From Candidatus Omnitrophota bacterium (GTDB lineage: Bacteria; CAIJMQ01): 64,000 nucleotides of DNA. The DNA lies in assembly GCA_018812925.1 (NCBI GenBank), contig JAHJCU010000004.1, positions 244,289 to 308,288 of the forward strand, written 5' to 3'. Under the pieces are notes generated by a model. The model saw only the letters and a program-made list of their open reading frames with translations. It made no database searches and was not told where the DNA came from. The position numbers were made by a program, and so were the translations under genes. Shown one piece after another: positions 16,786 to 22,137 of this stretch. Each line of letters starts with the position of its first letter. Position 1 is the stretch's first letter.

Positions 16786-16994
16786 TTTGTGCTCTTCCTT
16801 TTAATTAAAAAATAAAATTGTCGACGTATAACAATAACTCAAAAATAGAATATCACACATAAAGAATCTGCTACTCTTTCAAAAAGAGCAGCAGATTTTA
16901 TAAAACCCTTAGGATTAATTGTCTTGCCAGCCTGCTTGCTTCTACGTTACCTGCTCTAATATAAAATCGGAATGTTGAGCGGGCAGGCAATCAC

Positions 16995-17291
16995 CTATAT
17001 CTTACTAAGTTTGTCTAACCGCACCTTTTTTACAGAAGGCTTATTAATCATATTCGGCATCCAATCAGGCGCATTATCAGGTTTTTTTACTTTCACTACT
17101 TTACCCTTAAAAACATGTAATCTCCACTTGCCGTCTTTTTTTCTTGAATGTTCTCTTAATTTGATAAGACCTTCATTATCCTTTAAACCTCTTGAAGCGG
17201 CTTTTAATGCAGCAGCTCTCGGTGACCTACCCGTAAAAACATGTTTCTCCTTACTGCCTATTCTTAAAGAATACTGTTTAACTGTGTCCAT
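16995..17291 (-). CDS. MC1-family (archaeal non-histone chromosomal protein MC1-like) DNA-binding protein
   Basis: HVFTGRSPRAAALKAASRG, IKLRE...HVFKG and PDWMPNMINKPSVKKVRLDKL align along the whole length with Methanosarcina MC1 as I recall it (GVFTGKQPRQAALKAANRG, IRLRERGTKKVHVFKA, PDWMPEKISKPFVKKE). Confidence 0.7.
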   Translation of the reverse strand: MDTVKQYSLRIGSKEKHVFTGRSPRAAALKAASRGLKDNEGLIKLREHSRKKDGKWRLHVFKGKVVKVKKPDNAPDWMPNMINKPSVKKVRLDKLSKI

Positions 17292-17433
17292 AGCTCTACC
17301 TCCTTTTGTTAAAAATTAAAGTTGTTTCAAAATAATCTAAAAGCTTTCCAAATCATCTGCGGATTAATAACCCCTATGCACGCTTGTTTATATCCTTATA
17401 TCAAAAAGAAACAGCATTGACAAGTCTTGTTTT

Positions 17434-20271: not shown

Positions 20272-22137
20272 TTATTCCCCTTTATCATCTCCAAAAAAAG
20301 CCGCAGGGCCAACTTTCTTTTTTATCTCGAAAGACTTTTTTGCCAAATCAAAAGCCATGCCTAAATCTGCTTCGTCACATTTGTGGCAAGCGACTCTAAC
20401 AAGACCCCCCATTGTATATTTCTTGCCCGTTATATCTCTAAATGGACAATCTATATCTAGTAAGTCTTTTGGTGTTAAGCGAAGTGGAGCAATAGTAAGT
20501 TTTGATTTTTGGGGAAAAATACTAAAAAAAGGACCAACACCAATTCCGTCGTCAAAACTAAATTGACTCCTATCAACACGGACACTTATATTGTTGCTTA
20601 AAGCCAATATTTTATAAGTCAACTGTTTACAAAAATCAAGATGATATTTTAAAAACTTCAAGTTTTTCATATCTGGACCAAATAAAGATGCTTGTCCCCA
20701 TAATAATCCTAATGATGTTTTATCAAACTTTCTCATATGGGTAGATATTATAGTTTTTGCCTCTTGTTTGCTGATGAAGTGGGCCGGTATCTCGTCAATT
20801 TCTCGTTTAATTACTTCCCCTCTCTGTTGTATATCTACAACTCTTAACAAACCTAGATTTCCCCGAGTAAAGTATTCCTTCGGGGTTTCCCATTTCGGGA
20901 ATTTAGATATATGCACTTCTAGTATCCGTTCCAATTCAGTAAACAACAAAAAAGTAGAATAGGAAGCGTTATCGGAGTGAAATACTATAGGAATATCTTC
21001 TAAGAACCTCTCTCTATTATGTCCTATTTCCCCTATTTCCTCGCATTTGCAACGGAATTTTACGATGTTTCGATGAAAGAAATACACATTTATTGGATAT
21101 CTAATCTGCTCTAAATACTGGGTGGAATATACTCCTCCCATTCTCCAGACAAATTTATCATGTTCAGAGATGAAATCTTCATAGATATCCATTTTCTTCC
21201 AACTATCTGTTGCAAGTAAAAATGCCATCTTTTTCTCCGGTAGAATCAGAAAAGGGTTCCCAATTTTCTGTTTAATTATTTCCCACTCACTATTAGTAAC
21301 TGGGAAATTCGTACCCTCTGGCCGTCTTAATATACTGAGATTTCTAAGCCCTTCTATGTTCTTTAGTTCTTTGCGCAGGATAGGATTGTTTATTAATTTT
21401 TTGATAATTTTTATTTTAGCCATCCATCGTTCCTTCATAAACTTTTTTTCGTCAATCCGATATTTGTCAGGTCCTGCTGGGTTAGAATTGAAGAAAGGTT
21501 CGGATATAACTTCTGCAATAGCATAAATACCAGCATCCTTACCTGACATCCAAATCAAAGCTATATCACCAATCTTGATCTTATCTTTATATTGGAAAAT
21601 GCTCCAGCCATCGATATTGCAATTGGGATCAGTCAACGCGTTCAAAATATCATATTTGTCTGGATTTGCCTGAAAAATCCAAATATTTCTGTCTTTGCTT
21701 AAAGTGACTGGCTTTTCTTCAACTTTGCTTTCTTTTGGTTGGGTTTGTTCAACATCATCAAGAAATTTATAATTATGTTTTTGCGCTAGGTTCGATATGA
21801 AAGCAAGCCCTAATTCTTTACACTCAATTCCTACGTTCTCCAAAAAAAGTTTTCTTTCGCTGGGGATAATGTTTGCGCATAGTAGAAGCTCGATTGTTTT
21901 ATGAGGATTCTGTTGCTTTAATAAGCCGTAATATTCAATGATTTGTCCGGAGGCATCTCTCGATAAAATCCCCCTTTTGACTTCAACTATAATAGTTCGA
22001 TTATATTTGTCTTCAAAAACTATATCAGCAAAACAACTTCCTATCTTAACTTGTTGCCCAATAAGCTTAAAACCAGAATTAGGGAAGAAATCTTCGGGAT
22101 ATTGGGCGATAAGATTTTCTATATCTTTTTCCAACAT
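20272..22137 (-). CDS. PD-(D/E)xK nuclease (NucS/DUF91-like) - EVE (PUA-like) domain fusion with a roughly 330-aa uncharacterised C-terminal domain. Candidate modification-dependent restriction enzyme.
   Basis: N-terminus GSCFADIVFEDKYNRTIIVEVKRG matches the D...(D/E)xK core. Residues around 150-215 (WIFQANPDKYDI...IGDIALIWMSGKDAGIYAIAEVISEP) match the EVE/PUA-like signature. The remainder is unrecognised. Confidence 0.55.
   Translation of the reverse strand: MLEKDIENLIAQYPEDFFPNSGFKLIGQQVKIGSCFADIVFEDKYNRTIIVEVKRGILSRDASGQIIEYYGLLKQQNPHKTIELLLCANIIPSERKLFLENVGIECKELGLAFISNLAQKHNYKFLDDVEQTQPKESKVEEKPVTLSKDRNIWIFQANPDKYDILNALTDPNCNIDGWSIFQYKDKIKIGDIALIWMSGKDAGIYAIAEVISEPFFNSNPAGPDKYRIDEKKFMKERWMAKIKIIKKLINNPILRKELKNIEGLRNLSILRRPEGTNFPVTNSEWEIIKQKIGNPFLILPEKKMAFLLATDSWKKMDIYEDFISEHDKFVWRMGGVYSTQYLEQIRYPINVYFFHRNIVKFRCKCEEIGEIGHNRERFLEDIPIVFHSDNASYSTFLLFTELERILEVHISKFPKWETPKEYFTRGNLGLLRVVDIQQRGEVIKREIDEIPAHFISKQEAKTIISTHMRKFDKTSLGLLWGQASLFGPDMKNLKFLKYHLDFCKQLTYKILALSNNISVRVDRSQFSFDDGIGVGPFFSIFPQKSKLTIAPLRLTPKDLLDIDCPFRDITGKKYTMGGLVRVACHKCDEADLGMAFDLAKKSFEIKKKVGPAAFFGDDKGE

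What the first reader, a model, noticed from the sequence alone, without database searches (positions are those of the whole stretch)
16995..17291. Bacterial homologue of the archaeal chromatin protein MC1
The 98-aa product aligns end to end with Methanosarcina MC1 as I recall it (HVFTG.SPRAAALKAASRG / IKLRE...HVFKG / PDWMP...KP.VKK).
The MC1 family is regarded as characteristic of Euryarchaeota (Methanosarcinales, Halobacteria).
The window has Lol, SecDF and FtsQAZ and is clearly bacterial. This is therefore either an inter-domain transfer of a nucleoid-architectural protein or evidence of an unusual lineage.
Two other archaeal-type genes (ApgM, UPF0280) lie 8-10 kb away.
Basis: partly seen in the sequence, partly recalled or inferred. 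Interest (0 to 1): 0.6.

Follow-up and report, generated by a model that had tools for sequence, protein, structure and literature searches.

The report
Archaeal MC1 chromatin protein in bacteria
A small, very basic gene in this uncultured groundwater bacterium (Omnitrophota/Ratteibacteria) is a real, well-conserved copy of MC1, a DNA-bending chromosome protein otherwise typical of archaea. It was most likely acquired long ago from Altiarchaeota-like archaea, and public databases already label it as MC1.

Summary
The ORF at 16995-17291 (-) encodes a 98-aa protein (pI 10.7). It scores 78.5 bits on Pfam MC1 (cutoff 23) and E = 1.7e-16 against solved Methanosarcina MC1. All experimentally validated DNA-contact residues are kept. 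The window is bacterial (RNase Y, MreB, FtsH, LolCDE, SecDF, FtsAZ, MnmE).

The gene is not a chimera. The identical protein lies in the same gene order on 13 contigs; the six shown come from six different assemblies. Three diverged relatives keep the gene in place, with dN/dS 0.03-0.05. GC, codon use and tetranucleotides match the host. A sigma-70-like promoter, an AGGAGG ribosome-binding site and a hairpin terminator are conserved.

The bacterial sequences form one clade. Where labelled, they come from Omnitrophota, Ratteibacteria and Calescamantes. They share a 5-residue hairpin insertion with Altiarchaeota-type archaeal MC1s and nest among them, which points to an old archaea-to-bacteria transfer. 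These genomes probably carry 2-3 paralogues.

Novelty is limited. [quoted passage not shown] No study of it was found. Whether HU is still present, and how abundant MC1 is, could not be tested.

The parts
16995..17291 (-). MC1-family gene: 98 aa, 11.2 kDa, pI 10.7, 27 Lys+Arg
   Evidence: ORF. PF05854 78.5 bits. PDB 1T23 E 1.7e-16. AF2 model pLDDT 90.9 with beta-beta-alpha-beta-beta-beta order. dN/dS 0.03-0.05 against L001-L003. GC 0.360, GC3 0.303 and CAI-like 0.747 all fall within the range of the window's genes.
17299..17307 (-). Ribosome-binding site AAAAGGAGG, 7 nt before the ATG
   Evidence: Read from the sequence. Invariant in the window and in L001-L003 (alignment A3).
17395..17423 (-). 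Conserved sigma-70-like promoter candidate: TTGTCA (17423-17418), 17-nt spacer, TGnTATAAG (-10 hexamer at 17400-17395). It implies a 5' UTR of about 97 nt.
   Evidence: The block CTTG(T/C)CAA...TTCTTTTTG(A/G)TATAA is conserved in four diverged genomes. The consensus scanner did not call it because the -10 hexamer lacks the final T. Its promoter function is inferred, not shown.
16865..16897 (-). Intrinsic-terminator-like hairpin about 100 nt after the stop codon
   Evidence: 15-bp stem followed by a T-rich tail. Conserved in L001-L003, with a compensatory C-G for T-A change in L002 (alignment A4).
17121..17135 (-). Codons for residues 53-57 (DGKWR): a 5-residue insertion in the beta3-beta4 hairpin. 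It is shared with Altiarchaeota-type MC1 and absent from Methanosarcinales-type MC1.
   Evidence: Alignments. In the AF2 model it falls in the loop between E42-47 and E56-69.

Best explanation
The gene encodes a functional member of the MC1 family of monomeric, sequence-tolerant DNA-bending nucleoid proteins, working in a bacterium.

By homology with Methanosarcina MC1, the protein should bind the minor groove on the concave side of DNA. Contacts would come from the flexible Pro-x-Trp-Met-Pro arm (P75, W77, M78, P79), the last beta-strand (K88, K89, R91, L92) and the helix arginine (R25). Binding would bend the DNA by roughly 100 degrees, which compacts and protects the chromosome.

The gene is expressed as a single-gene unit from its own conserved bacterial-type promoter, with a strong ribosome-binding site and its own terminator.

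It entered bacteria by an old transfer from archaea related to Altiarchaeota. It has since been fully adapted to the host genome, inherited vertically within the Ratteibacteria/Omnitrophota-labelled lineage, and duplicated.

Shown here: family membership, conservation of contact residues, purifying selection, a stable chromosomal position and the bacterial context. Inferred: DNA bending, a role in the nucleoid, promoter activity, the direction of transfer and the donor.
For: - **Family membership:** PF05854 78.5 bits; solved MC1 E 1.7e-16.
- **Contact residues:** mutagenesis and NMR identified K22, R25, K30, P72, W74, M75, P76, K85, K86, R88 and I89 in M. thermophila MC1 (PMC3928310). They align with R22, R25, K30, P75, W77, M78, P79, K88, K89, R91 and L92 here. 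R25, P75, W77, P79 and K89 are invariant across 44 diverse members.
- **Fold:** the AF2 model has pLDDT 90.9. Its helix 24-34, loop 70-80 and strand 81-95 match the described helix, LP5 arm and beta5.
- **Not a chimera:** the identical protein occurs on 13 contigs. The six shown come from six different assemblies (ENA, two Logan runs, three NCBI), one contig is 419 kb long, and all six share the order LolCE-LolD-TPR-MC1-epimerase-GT4-RNase Y where they extend that far.
- **Stable position:** the same position is kept in L001-L003. There the neighbouring proteins are 71-92% identical and MC1 is 86-93% identical.
- **Selection:** dN/dS is 0.03-0.05 at dS of about 1.5.
- **Composition:** GC, GC3 and CAI-like values lie within 1 sd of the window's genes. 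Tetranucleotide correlation of the 4 kb around the gene with the rest of the window is 0.972, against 0.957 +/- 0.025 for all such segments.
- **Expression signals:** the promoter-like block, ribosome-binding site and terminator are conserved. Single-gene operons are typical of nucleoid-protein genes (PMC11390915).
- **Origin:** the bacterial group is monophyletic in 68% of 200 NJ bootstraps. The archaeal 94-95-aa group is never monophyletic, so it is paraphyletic to the bacterial group. The whole insertion-bearing group has 86% support.
- **Contexts:** the 94-95-aa forms have archaeal neighbours (aIF2-beta, MCH, ELP3, PCNA). The 98-aa forms have bacterial neighbours (SurA, ExbBD, LpxB, PriA, MnmG, IspD).
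- **Paralogues:** a second copy, 69-70% identical, lies on another contig of the same metagenome assembly. That contig has matching composition (r = 0.984), and the NCBI accession numbers of the two copies are close together.
Against: - No binding, bending, abundance or localisation data exist for any bacterial MC1.
- The -10 hexamer lacks the canonical final T, and the consensus scan did not call it.
- Codon adaptation is only average for the window, so very high expression is not indicated.
- The tree comes from about 100 columns by NJ only. Support for the exact sister relationship is weak (bacterial plus 94-95-aa group: 52%).
- Donor identity rests on one named Altiarchaeales MAG plus context checks on unnamed contigs.
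- In M. acetivorans one paralogue (MC1b) behaves more like a regulator (bioRxiv 10.1101/2025.11.24.690127). A global architectural role therefore cannot be assumed for every copy.
Confidence: 0.75

Rival explanations
1. The protein is a specialised DNA-binding regulator, or is used only under stress or stasis, and is not a general nucleoid-architectural protein. The MC1 fold would be retained, but the protein would act at a limited set of sites alongside HU/IHF.
For: In M. acetivorans the two MC1 paralogues have diverged, and MC1b looks like a transcription-factor-like regulator. The bacterial genomes seem to hold 2-3 diverged paralogues, which fits subfunctionalisation. Codon adaptation is average. 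A 2017 review states that MC1 in bacteria accompanies HU and never replaces it. The lineage-specific DGKWR insertion next to the basic patch could alter binding.
Against: All residues needed for non-specific minor-groove binding and bending are kept. The strong ribosome-binding site, the single-gene unit and the very low dN/dS are typical of abundant nucleoid proteins. No partner or target gene is conserved next to it: the different bacterial lineages show different contexts.
Confidence: 0.2
2. The transfer ran the other way. The insertion-bearing subfamily arose in bacteria, and Altiarchaeota-type archaea acquired it from them.
For: The bacterial and Altiarchaeota-type sequences are 63-72% identical and fall in a single 50%-identity cluster. 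The NJ tree is unrooted by nature and weakly supported inside the subfamily.
Against: The rest of the family is archaeal where labelled or checked: 2834 hits at 90% clustering and 363 clusters at 50%. The insertion-bearing archaeal groups (94-95 aa, plus the RERGRRNKDGTYS group with an archaeal uS15 context) are paraphyletic around a monophyletic bacterial clade. The bacterial forms carry a further 4-residue insertion, xDGL, that the 94-95-aa Altiarchaeota-type forms lack.
Confidence: 0.08
3. It is an assembly or binning artefact: an archaeal fragment joined to a bacterial contig.
For: None was found. The only argument is the prior expectation that MC1 is archaeal.
Against: The gene lies 142 nt and 209 nt from bacterial-context genes inside a continuous 64-kb window. 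The identical arrangement appears in six different assemblies, on contigs up to 419 kb. Synteny holds in three diverged genomes. There is no anomaly in GC, GC3, codon use or tetranucleotides. The upstream signals are bacterial in type.
Confidence: 0.01
4. It is cargo of a mobile element or virus, for example a plasmid or phage chromatin protein, and not a host chromosomal gene.
For: One relative (P0016) lies among many tiny unannotated ORFs, 5 kb from an IS transposase. An IMG/VR contig carries a 90-aa MC1 close to a tyrosine-recombinase-like ORF (my reading of its sequence, not a family search). Halococcus plasmids carry MC1 genes. Chloroviruses are reported to encode MC1-like proteins.
Against: In the window the gene sits between housekeeping genes, with no integrase, repeats or compositional shift, and stays there across species. 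There was no hit in 50,697 phage records and no bacterial plasmid hit. PHROGs found no phage genes in the P0016 context other than the transposase.
Confidence: 0.02

Closest known systems
MC1 of Methanosarcina thermophila (PDB 1T23, 2KHL, 2NBJ; Pfam PF05854)
   Same: Same family at 50% identity: a single-domain basic protein of about 95 aa. It has the same order of strands and helix, the same P-x-W-M-P arm, the helix Arg25 and the basic last strand that contact DNA.
   Different: The host is a bacterium. The beta3-beta4 hairpin carries a 5-residue insertion (DGKWR). The loop after the helix is shorter than in Methanosarcina. Q23 is S, R71 is A and I89 is L. No biochemistry exists for it.
MC1 of Candidatus Altiarchaeales archaeon WOR_SM1_SCG (P0031) and related 94-95-aa archaeal MC1s
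   Same: 68% identity and the same hairpin insertion. They fall in the same 50%-identity cluster and are also small single-domain proteins.
   Different: The archaeal forms lack the 4-residue xDGL insertion. They sit next to aIF2-beta or PCNA and can occur as tandem pairs. The bacterial forms have bacterial promoter and ribosome-binding signals and bacterial neighbours.
Bacterial histones (Bdellovibrio and others) and the 'IHF histones' of Omnitrophota
   Same: These are analogous cases of chromatin proteins typical of archaea and eukaryotes being encoded in bacteria, including in candidate phyla (PMC11390915).
   Different: The fold and DNA-binding mode are unrelated: a histone-fold dimer against a monomeric MC1. 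For Bdellovibrio, abundance and binding have been measured (my own knowledge, not checked here). No such data exist for bacterial MC1.
HTa of Thermoplasma (HU acquired by an archaeon)
   Same: It is the mirror case: a main nucleoid protein of one domain transferred to the other and kept there (PMC7613761).
   Different: The direction is opposite and the protein family is different. HTa is shown to be the main chromatin protein of its host, which is not known here.

Membership tests
MC1 (Pfam PF05854, non-histone chromosomal protein MC1) | Match to the family profile above the curated gathering score, over essentially the full length | tested here: met
   78.5 bits against a cutoff of 23; profile positions 12-95 of 96.
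MC1 (Pfam PF05854) | Sequence homology to the experimentally characterised and solved MC1 of Methanosarcina | tested here: met
   1T23/2KHL/2NBJ, E 1.7e-16, residues 13-95 against 13-92. Global identity is 50%.
MC1 (Pfam PF05854) | Small (about 90-100 aa), single-domain, strongly basic protein | tested here: met
   98 aa, 11.2 kDa, pI 10.69, 27 K+R against 9 D+E. MC1 is the only Pfam domain above its cutoff.
MC1 (Pfam PF05854) | DNA-contact residues shown by NMR and mutagenesis: helix Arg25; arm Pro72, Trp74, Met75 (Pro76); beta5 Lys85, Lys86, Arg88, Ile89 | tested here: met
   R25, P75, W77, M78, P79, K88, K89 and R91 are present, and L92 is a conservative Ile-to-Leu change. R25, P75, W77, P79 and K89 are invariant in 44 members.
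MC1 (Pfam PF05854) | MC1 fold: one helix packed on five antiparallel strands, with a long flexible arm (LP5) | tested here: inconclusive
MC1 (Pfam PF05854) | Binds double-stranded DNA as a monomer and bends it sharply; abundant on the chromosome | not testable with these tools
   This needs purified protein (gel shift, minicircle or AFM assays) and proteomics of the organism.
MC1 (Pfam PF05854) | Customary taxonomic range (Methanosarcinales, Methanomicrobiales, Halobacteria, MG-II). This is a habit of the family, not a structural criterion. | tested here: not met
   The host is bacterial. NCBI labels the identical protein Candidatus Omnitrophica/Omnitrophota. This does not affect membership by homology.

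The most novel reading that the evidence does not exclude
In this Ratteibacteria/Omnitrophota-labelled lineage, duplicated MC1 paralogues may have become the principal nucleoid-structuring proteins, dominating or even replacing HU. That would be a bacterial chromatin built on an archaeal DNA-bending protein, acquired from co-resident Altiarchaeota-like archaea in subsurface water. It would contradict the published statement that MC1 never displaces HU in bacteria.
Probability: 0.12. Interest if true: 0.8.

Novelty: new member of a known kind. Interest (0 to 1): 0.45.

Why it matters
Nucleoid proteins are usually treated as markers of a domain: HU for bacteria, and histones, Alba and MC1 for archaea. 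This is a stably inherited, strongly constrained and duplicated MC1 in several candidate bacterial phyla. It shows that an archaeal DNA-bending protein can be taken up and kept by bacteria, as histones were in Bdellovibrio and HU was in Thermoplasma. It offers a natural experiment on how interchangeable chromatin proteins are between the domains. The shared insertion with Altiarchaeota-type MC1 also gives a concrete marker of gene flow between archaea and bacteria. The practical value is modest, because the protein is already correctly named in public databases and no function has been measured.

Tried and rejected
- **Vicinamibacterales hit L006** from the genome scan is spurious: 28 residues with no ORF.
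- **Possible mobile vehicle.** There were no phage records and no bacterial plasmids, only Halococcus plasmids at 32-34% identity. PHROGs found nothing phage-like around P0016 except an IS transposase. The TPR gene beside P0016 is unrelated to the window's TPR gene.
- **HU, histone and Alba searches** by tblastn in the window and in 277 kb of held loci found nothing. That is too little sequence to say anything about the genome.
- **Regulatory RNA in the conserved 5' UTR.** There was no Rfam hit and no covariation.
- **Consensus promoter scan.** It did not call the conserved block, so I located it by comparative alignment instead.
- **Bootstrap tree.** A first script timed out. It was redone with a numpy NJ implementation.
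- **Literature.** No paper pairs MC1 with Omnitrophota, Omnitrophica or Ratteibacteria.
- **Not used.** I did not use the third large protein search or the metagenome scan, because they could not settle the HU question.

Full report
**1. The observation**

The minus-strand ORF 16995..17291 starts with ATG and encodes 98 residues. It is preceded by AAAAGGAGG, 7 nt upstream. The product scores 78.5 bits on Pfam PF05854, 'Non-histone chromosomal protein MC1', against a gathering score of 23, and covers positions 12-95 of the 96-position profile.

Against all PDB sequences the only match is the MC1 chain of 1T23/2KHL/2NBJ. That match has E = 1.7e-16 over residues 13-95, and global identity is 50%. 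NCBIfam has no model for the family. The protein is 11.2 kDa with pI 10.7.

**2. Is the window bacterial, and is the gene really part of it?**

Genes on both sides are bacterial housekeeping genes:
- LolCE, LolD, a bacterial-type class II LysRS, RNase Y, YmdB, MreB, FtsH and FolP.
- Further along the window: SecD, SecF, FtsZ, FtsA, MnmE, Tgt and a GGDEF protein.

Composition shows no anomaly:
- GC is flat across the window.
- The gene has GC 0.360, GC3 0.303 and a CAI-like index of 0.747. The window's genes average 0.376 +/- 0.027, 0.327 +/- 0.035 and 0.732 +/- 0.027.
- Tetranucleotide correlation of the 4 kb around the gene with the rest of the window is 0.972. The mean for all such segments is 0.957 +/- 0.025.

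The identical protein is on record on 13 contigs. The six shown come from six different assemblies (ENA, two Logan runs and three NCBI assemblies). All six have the same order, LolCE-LolD-TPR-MC1-epimerase-GT4-RNase Y-YmdB-PanD-MreB where they extend that far, and one contig is 419 kb long.

Three diverged genomes keep the gene at the same place (L001, L002, L003). Their neighbouring proteins are 71-92% identical to the window's. A chimera is excluded.

**3. Is the gene functional?**

Between the window and L001-L003 the synonymous sites are nearly saturated (dS about 1.5), while dN is 0.05-0.07. This gives dN/dS of 0.03-0.05. MC1 is 86-93% identical across these genomes, as conserved as LysRS and RNase Y and more conserved than its immediate neighbours.

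Comparative alignment of the upstream spacer shows three conserved features:
- a block TTG(T/C)CA, 17 nt, TGnTATAA(G/A) at 17423-17395;
- an invariant AAAAGGAGG;
- a leader of about 97 nt.

Downstream, a 15-bp hairpin with a T-rich tail (16897-16865) is conserved, with a compensatory change in L002. The gene is thus a single-gene unit with bacterial-type signals, which is the usual layout of nucleoid-protein genes (PMC11390915). The promoter assignment is inferred: the consensus scanner did not call it, because the -10 hexamer lacks the final T.

**4. Mechanism by homology**

NMR, docking and mutagenesis of M. thermophila MC1 define three contact areas (PMC3928310):
- Arg25, with Lys22 and Lys30, on the helix;
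- the hydrophobic arm Pro72, Trp74, Met75 and Pro76;
- Lys85, Lys86, Arg88 and Ile89 on the last strand.

R25A/Q lowers affinity more than 100-fold. W74F, P72A and I89A reduce bending.

In alignment A1 these positions are R22, R25, K30, P75, W77, M78, P79, K88, K89, R91 and L92 in the window protein. R25, P75, W77, P79 and K89 are invariant across 44 diverse family members.

An AlphaFold2 model built on that alignment has pLDDT 90.9. It gives strands 5-11 and 14-21, helix 24-34, strands 42-47 and 56-69, a loop at 70-80 and a strand at 81-95. The helix, arm and last strand therefore sit where the literature puts them.

The most likely function is monomeric minor-groove binding on the concave face, with sharp bending. 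That would compact and protect DNA. This function is inferred and was not tested.

**5. Where it came from**

A word-seeded profile search found 2834 MC1 proteins at 90% clustering. An exhaustive HMM search of 1.84 billion 50%-identity representatives found only 363 clusters at E <= 1e-3. The family is therefore small.

The top-scoring set forms a distinct subfamily at 60% identity or more to the query. Scores then drop to Methanosarcinales and Methanoperedens proteins at 42-55% identity.

Indels split the hits cleanly:

| Group | Length | Signature | Context found |
|---|---|---|---|
| B | 98-105 aa | GLKDxDGLIKLREH..KKDG[KLY][WY]R | Bacterial |
| A | 94-95 aa | Same 5-residue hairpin insertion, no xDGL | Archaeal (three of four contigs checked; L018 uninformative) |
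| A2 | 95-100 aa | RERGRRNKDGTYS | Archaeal |
| C and Methanosarcinales-type | 91-113 aa | No hairpin insertion | Archaeal where named (Methanosarcinales, Methanoperedens); contexts not checked |

The context checks were as follows.
- **Group B (bacterial):**
  - the window itself;
  - L016, L019 and L024, with SurA, ExbBD and type IV pilin-like proteins, plus LpxB (L016, L019) and PriA (L016);
  - L013, with MnmG and a LexA-like domain fused to a methylase;
  - L014/L015, with IspD and Hyp genes, labelled Calescamantes.
- **Group A (archaeal):**
  - L004, with aIF2-beta, a named Altiarchaeales MAG;
  - L017, with MCH, aIF2-beta, ELP3 and two tandem MC1 genes;
  - L023, with PCNA.
  - A fourth group A contig, L018 (P0051), has an uninformative context.
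- **Group A2 (archaeal):** L022, with the archaeal form of uS15 and NFACT.

NJ trees with 200 bootstraps gave:
- group B monophyletic in 68%;
- group A never monophyletic, so it is paraphyletic around B;
- A+B in 52%;
- A+B+A2 in 86%.

The simplest history is one old archaea-to-bacteria transfer from an Altiarchaeota-like donor. It was followed by the xDGL insertion and by spread or vertical descent in bacteria. The tree is short and distance-based, so the direction of transfer and the donor remain inferences.

Where NCBI labels exist, the bacterial hosts are Candidatus Omnitrophica/Omnitrophota, Candidatus Ratteibacteria, Candidatus Calescamantes and unclassified 'bacterium'. NCBI taxonomy lists the named Ratteibacteria entries as CG-prefixed MAGs. 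From my own knowledge these are Crystal Geyser genomes, from a site where Altiarchaeum is abundant. This would fit the proposed transfer but was not tested.

**6. Paralogues**

A second bacterial type has 'LY' in place of 'KW' in the insertion and is 69-70% identical to the window protein. It occurs in the same ENA assembly as the 419-kb contig, on a separate 99.9-kb contig. That contig has GC 0.366 and a tetranucleotide correlation of 0.984 with the window.

Its NCBI accession numbers lie within a few hundred of those of the window-type protein:
- MBU0533774 and MBU0534535;
- MBU1048265 and MBU1047968;
- MCK4905558 and MCK4905868.

These genomes therefore probably hold two MC1 genes. Another 'bacterium' MAG appears to hold three. 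This is inferred from accession proximity and composition, not from a closed genome. It parallels MC1a/MC1b in Methanosarcina, where at least one copy seems to be essential and the copies have diverged in role (bioRxiv 10.1101/2025.11.24.690127).

**7. What is already known**

[quoted passage not shown] Burroughs et al. 2017 state in passing that bacterial HU 'might be additionally accompanied by ... MC1 or histones' and that these 'never displace HU' (PMC5499826).

MC1 has also been reported as horizontally acquired in MG-II archaea (PMC7613761) and in chloroviruses (PMC8715426 and PMC5671483). I found no paper that pairs MC1 with Omnitrophota, Omnitrophica or Ratteibacteria. PF05854 is cited in only one paper, on Methanosarcina.

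The finding is therefore a correct and well-supported case of a known family in an unexpected domain. It is already annotated but has not been studied. The following appear to be undescribed in the library I could search:
- the link to Altiarchaeota-type MC1 through the shared insertion;
- the monophyly of the bacterial clade;
- its paralogy;
- the strong constraint on the sequence;
- the bacterial-type expression signals.

**8. What remains open**

Two things would decide whether this is a curiosity or a bacterial chromatin built on an archaeal protein: whether HU/IHF is present in these genomes, and how abundant MC1 is. Neither could be tested here. Only 64 kb of the genome and 277 kb of related loci were held, and they contain no HU, which is uninformative. 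Some Omnitrophota metagenomes are reported to encode IHF-like proteins, so loss of the HU family across the whole phylum is unlikely.

**9. Verdict**

- Observation: confirmed.
- Interpretation (inter-domain transfer of a nucleoid-architectural protein into a candidate-phylum bacterium): supported.
- Chimera: refuted.
- Novelty: a new member of a known kind.
- Interest: moderate.

Noticed in passing
L024 6001-6297 (ENA ERZ27247128 k141_447520); also L025, L016, L019: A second MC1 paralogue ('LY' type) is 69-70% identical to the window protein. It lies at a different locus (pilin-like genes, then MC1, then VIT1 and LeuRS) in the same metagenome assembly. Composition matches the window (r = 0.984), and its NCBI accession numbers are close to those of the window-type protein. 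These bacteria probably carry 2-3 MC1 genes.
   Followed up: partly
window 20272-22137 (-): A 621-aa ORF combines a NucS-type nuclease C-terminal domain with an EVE domain, which binds modified bases. It is present in the window and in the near-identical contigs, but absent between LysRS and LolCE in L002 and L003. It therefore looks like a strain-specific insertion, possibly a modification-dependent nuclease or defence gene.
   Followed up: partly
window 17292-17394 (-) and alignment A3: The leader upstream of MC1 is about 97 nt long and has conserved blocks (GGTTATTnAT, GATTAGTT, TTAATTTTT) in four diverged genomes. There was no Rfam match and no covariation, so its purpose is unknown. It could be an autoregulatory binding site.
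   Followed up: partly
L017 6001-6285 and 6337-6624: An Altiarchaeota-type contig (MCH, aIF2-beta, ELP3) carries two tandem MC1 genes of 94 and 95 aa, 83% identical to each other.
   Followed up: no
L005 7968-8378: An archaeal MC1 of 136 aa has a C-terminal tail of about 45 residues made almost only of Lys, Ala and Thr. The tail is reminiscent of linker-histone tails.
   Followed up: no
L021 5832-6104 (IMGVR_UViG_3300010346_002716): The only IMG/VR contig with an MC1 gene carries a 90-aa copy without the hairpin insertion, at GC 0.48. The gene is next to a TPR gene and about 2.2 kb from an ORF that I read as a tyrosine recombinase from its sequence (no family search was run). It is probably an integrated element of an archaeon.
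   Followed up: no
L016 7462-9299; L019 6471-8257: In two bacterial contigs the MC1 paralogue is directly followed by a DeoC-family gene and a PF01959 DHQS gene. From my own knowledge these are the archaeal-type entry enzymes of the shikimate pathway. This could be a remnant of a co-transferred block or a coincidence. The arrangement is not kept in L024.
   Followed up: no
An S21 gene lies between them in the called genes (L007). They sit among ordinary bacterial genes, and nothing ties them to the MC1 gene.
   Followed up: partly
Search of protein representatives output (P0169, P0179, P0261, P0278): A few MC1-domain proteins are much longer (282-527 aa), with the MC1 domain at one end. These are possible fusions that were not examined.
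   Followed up: no
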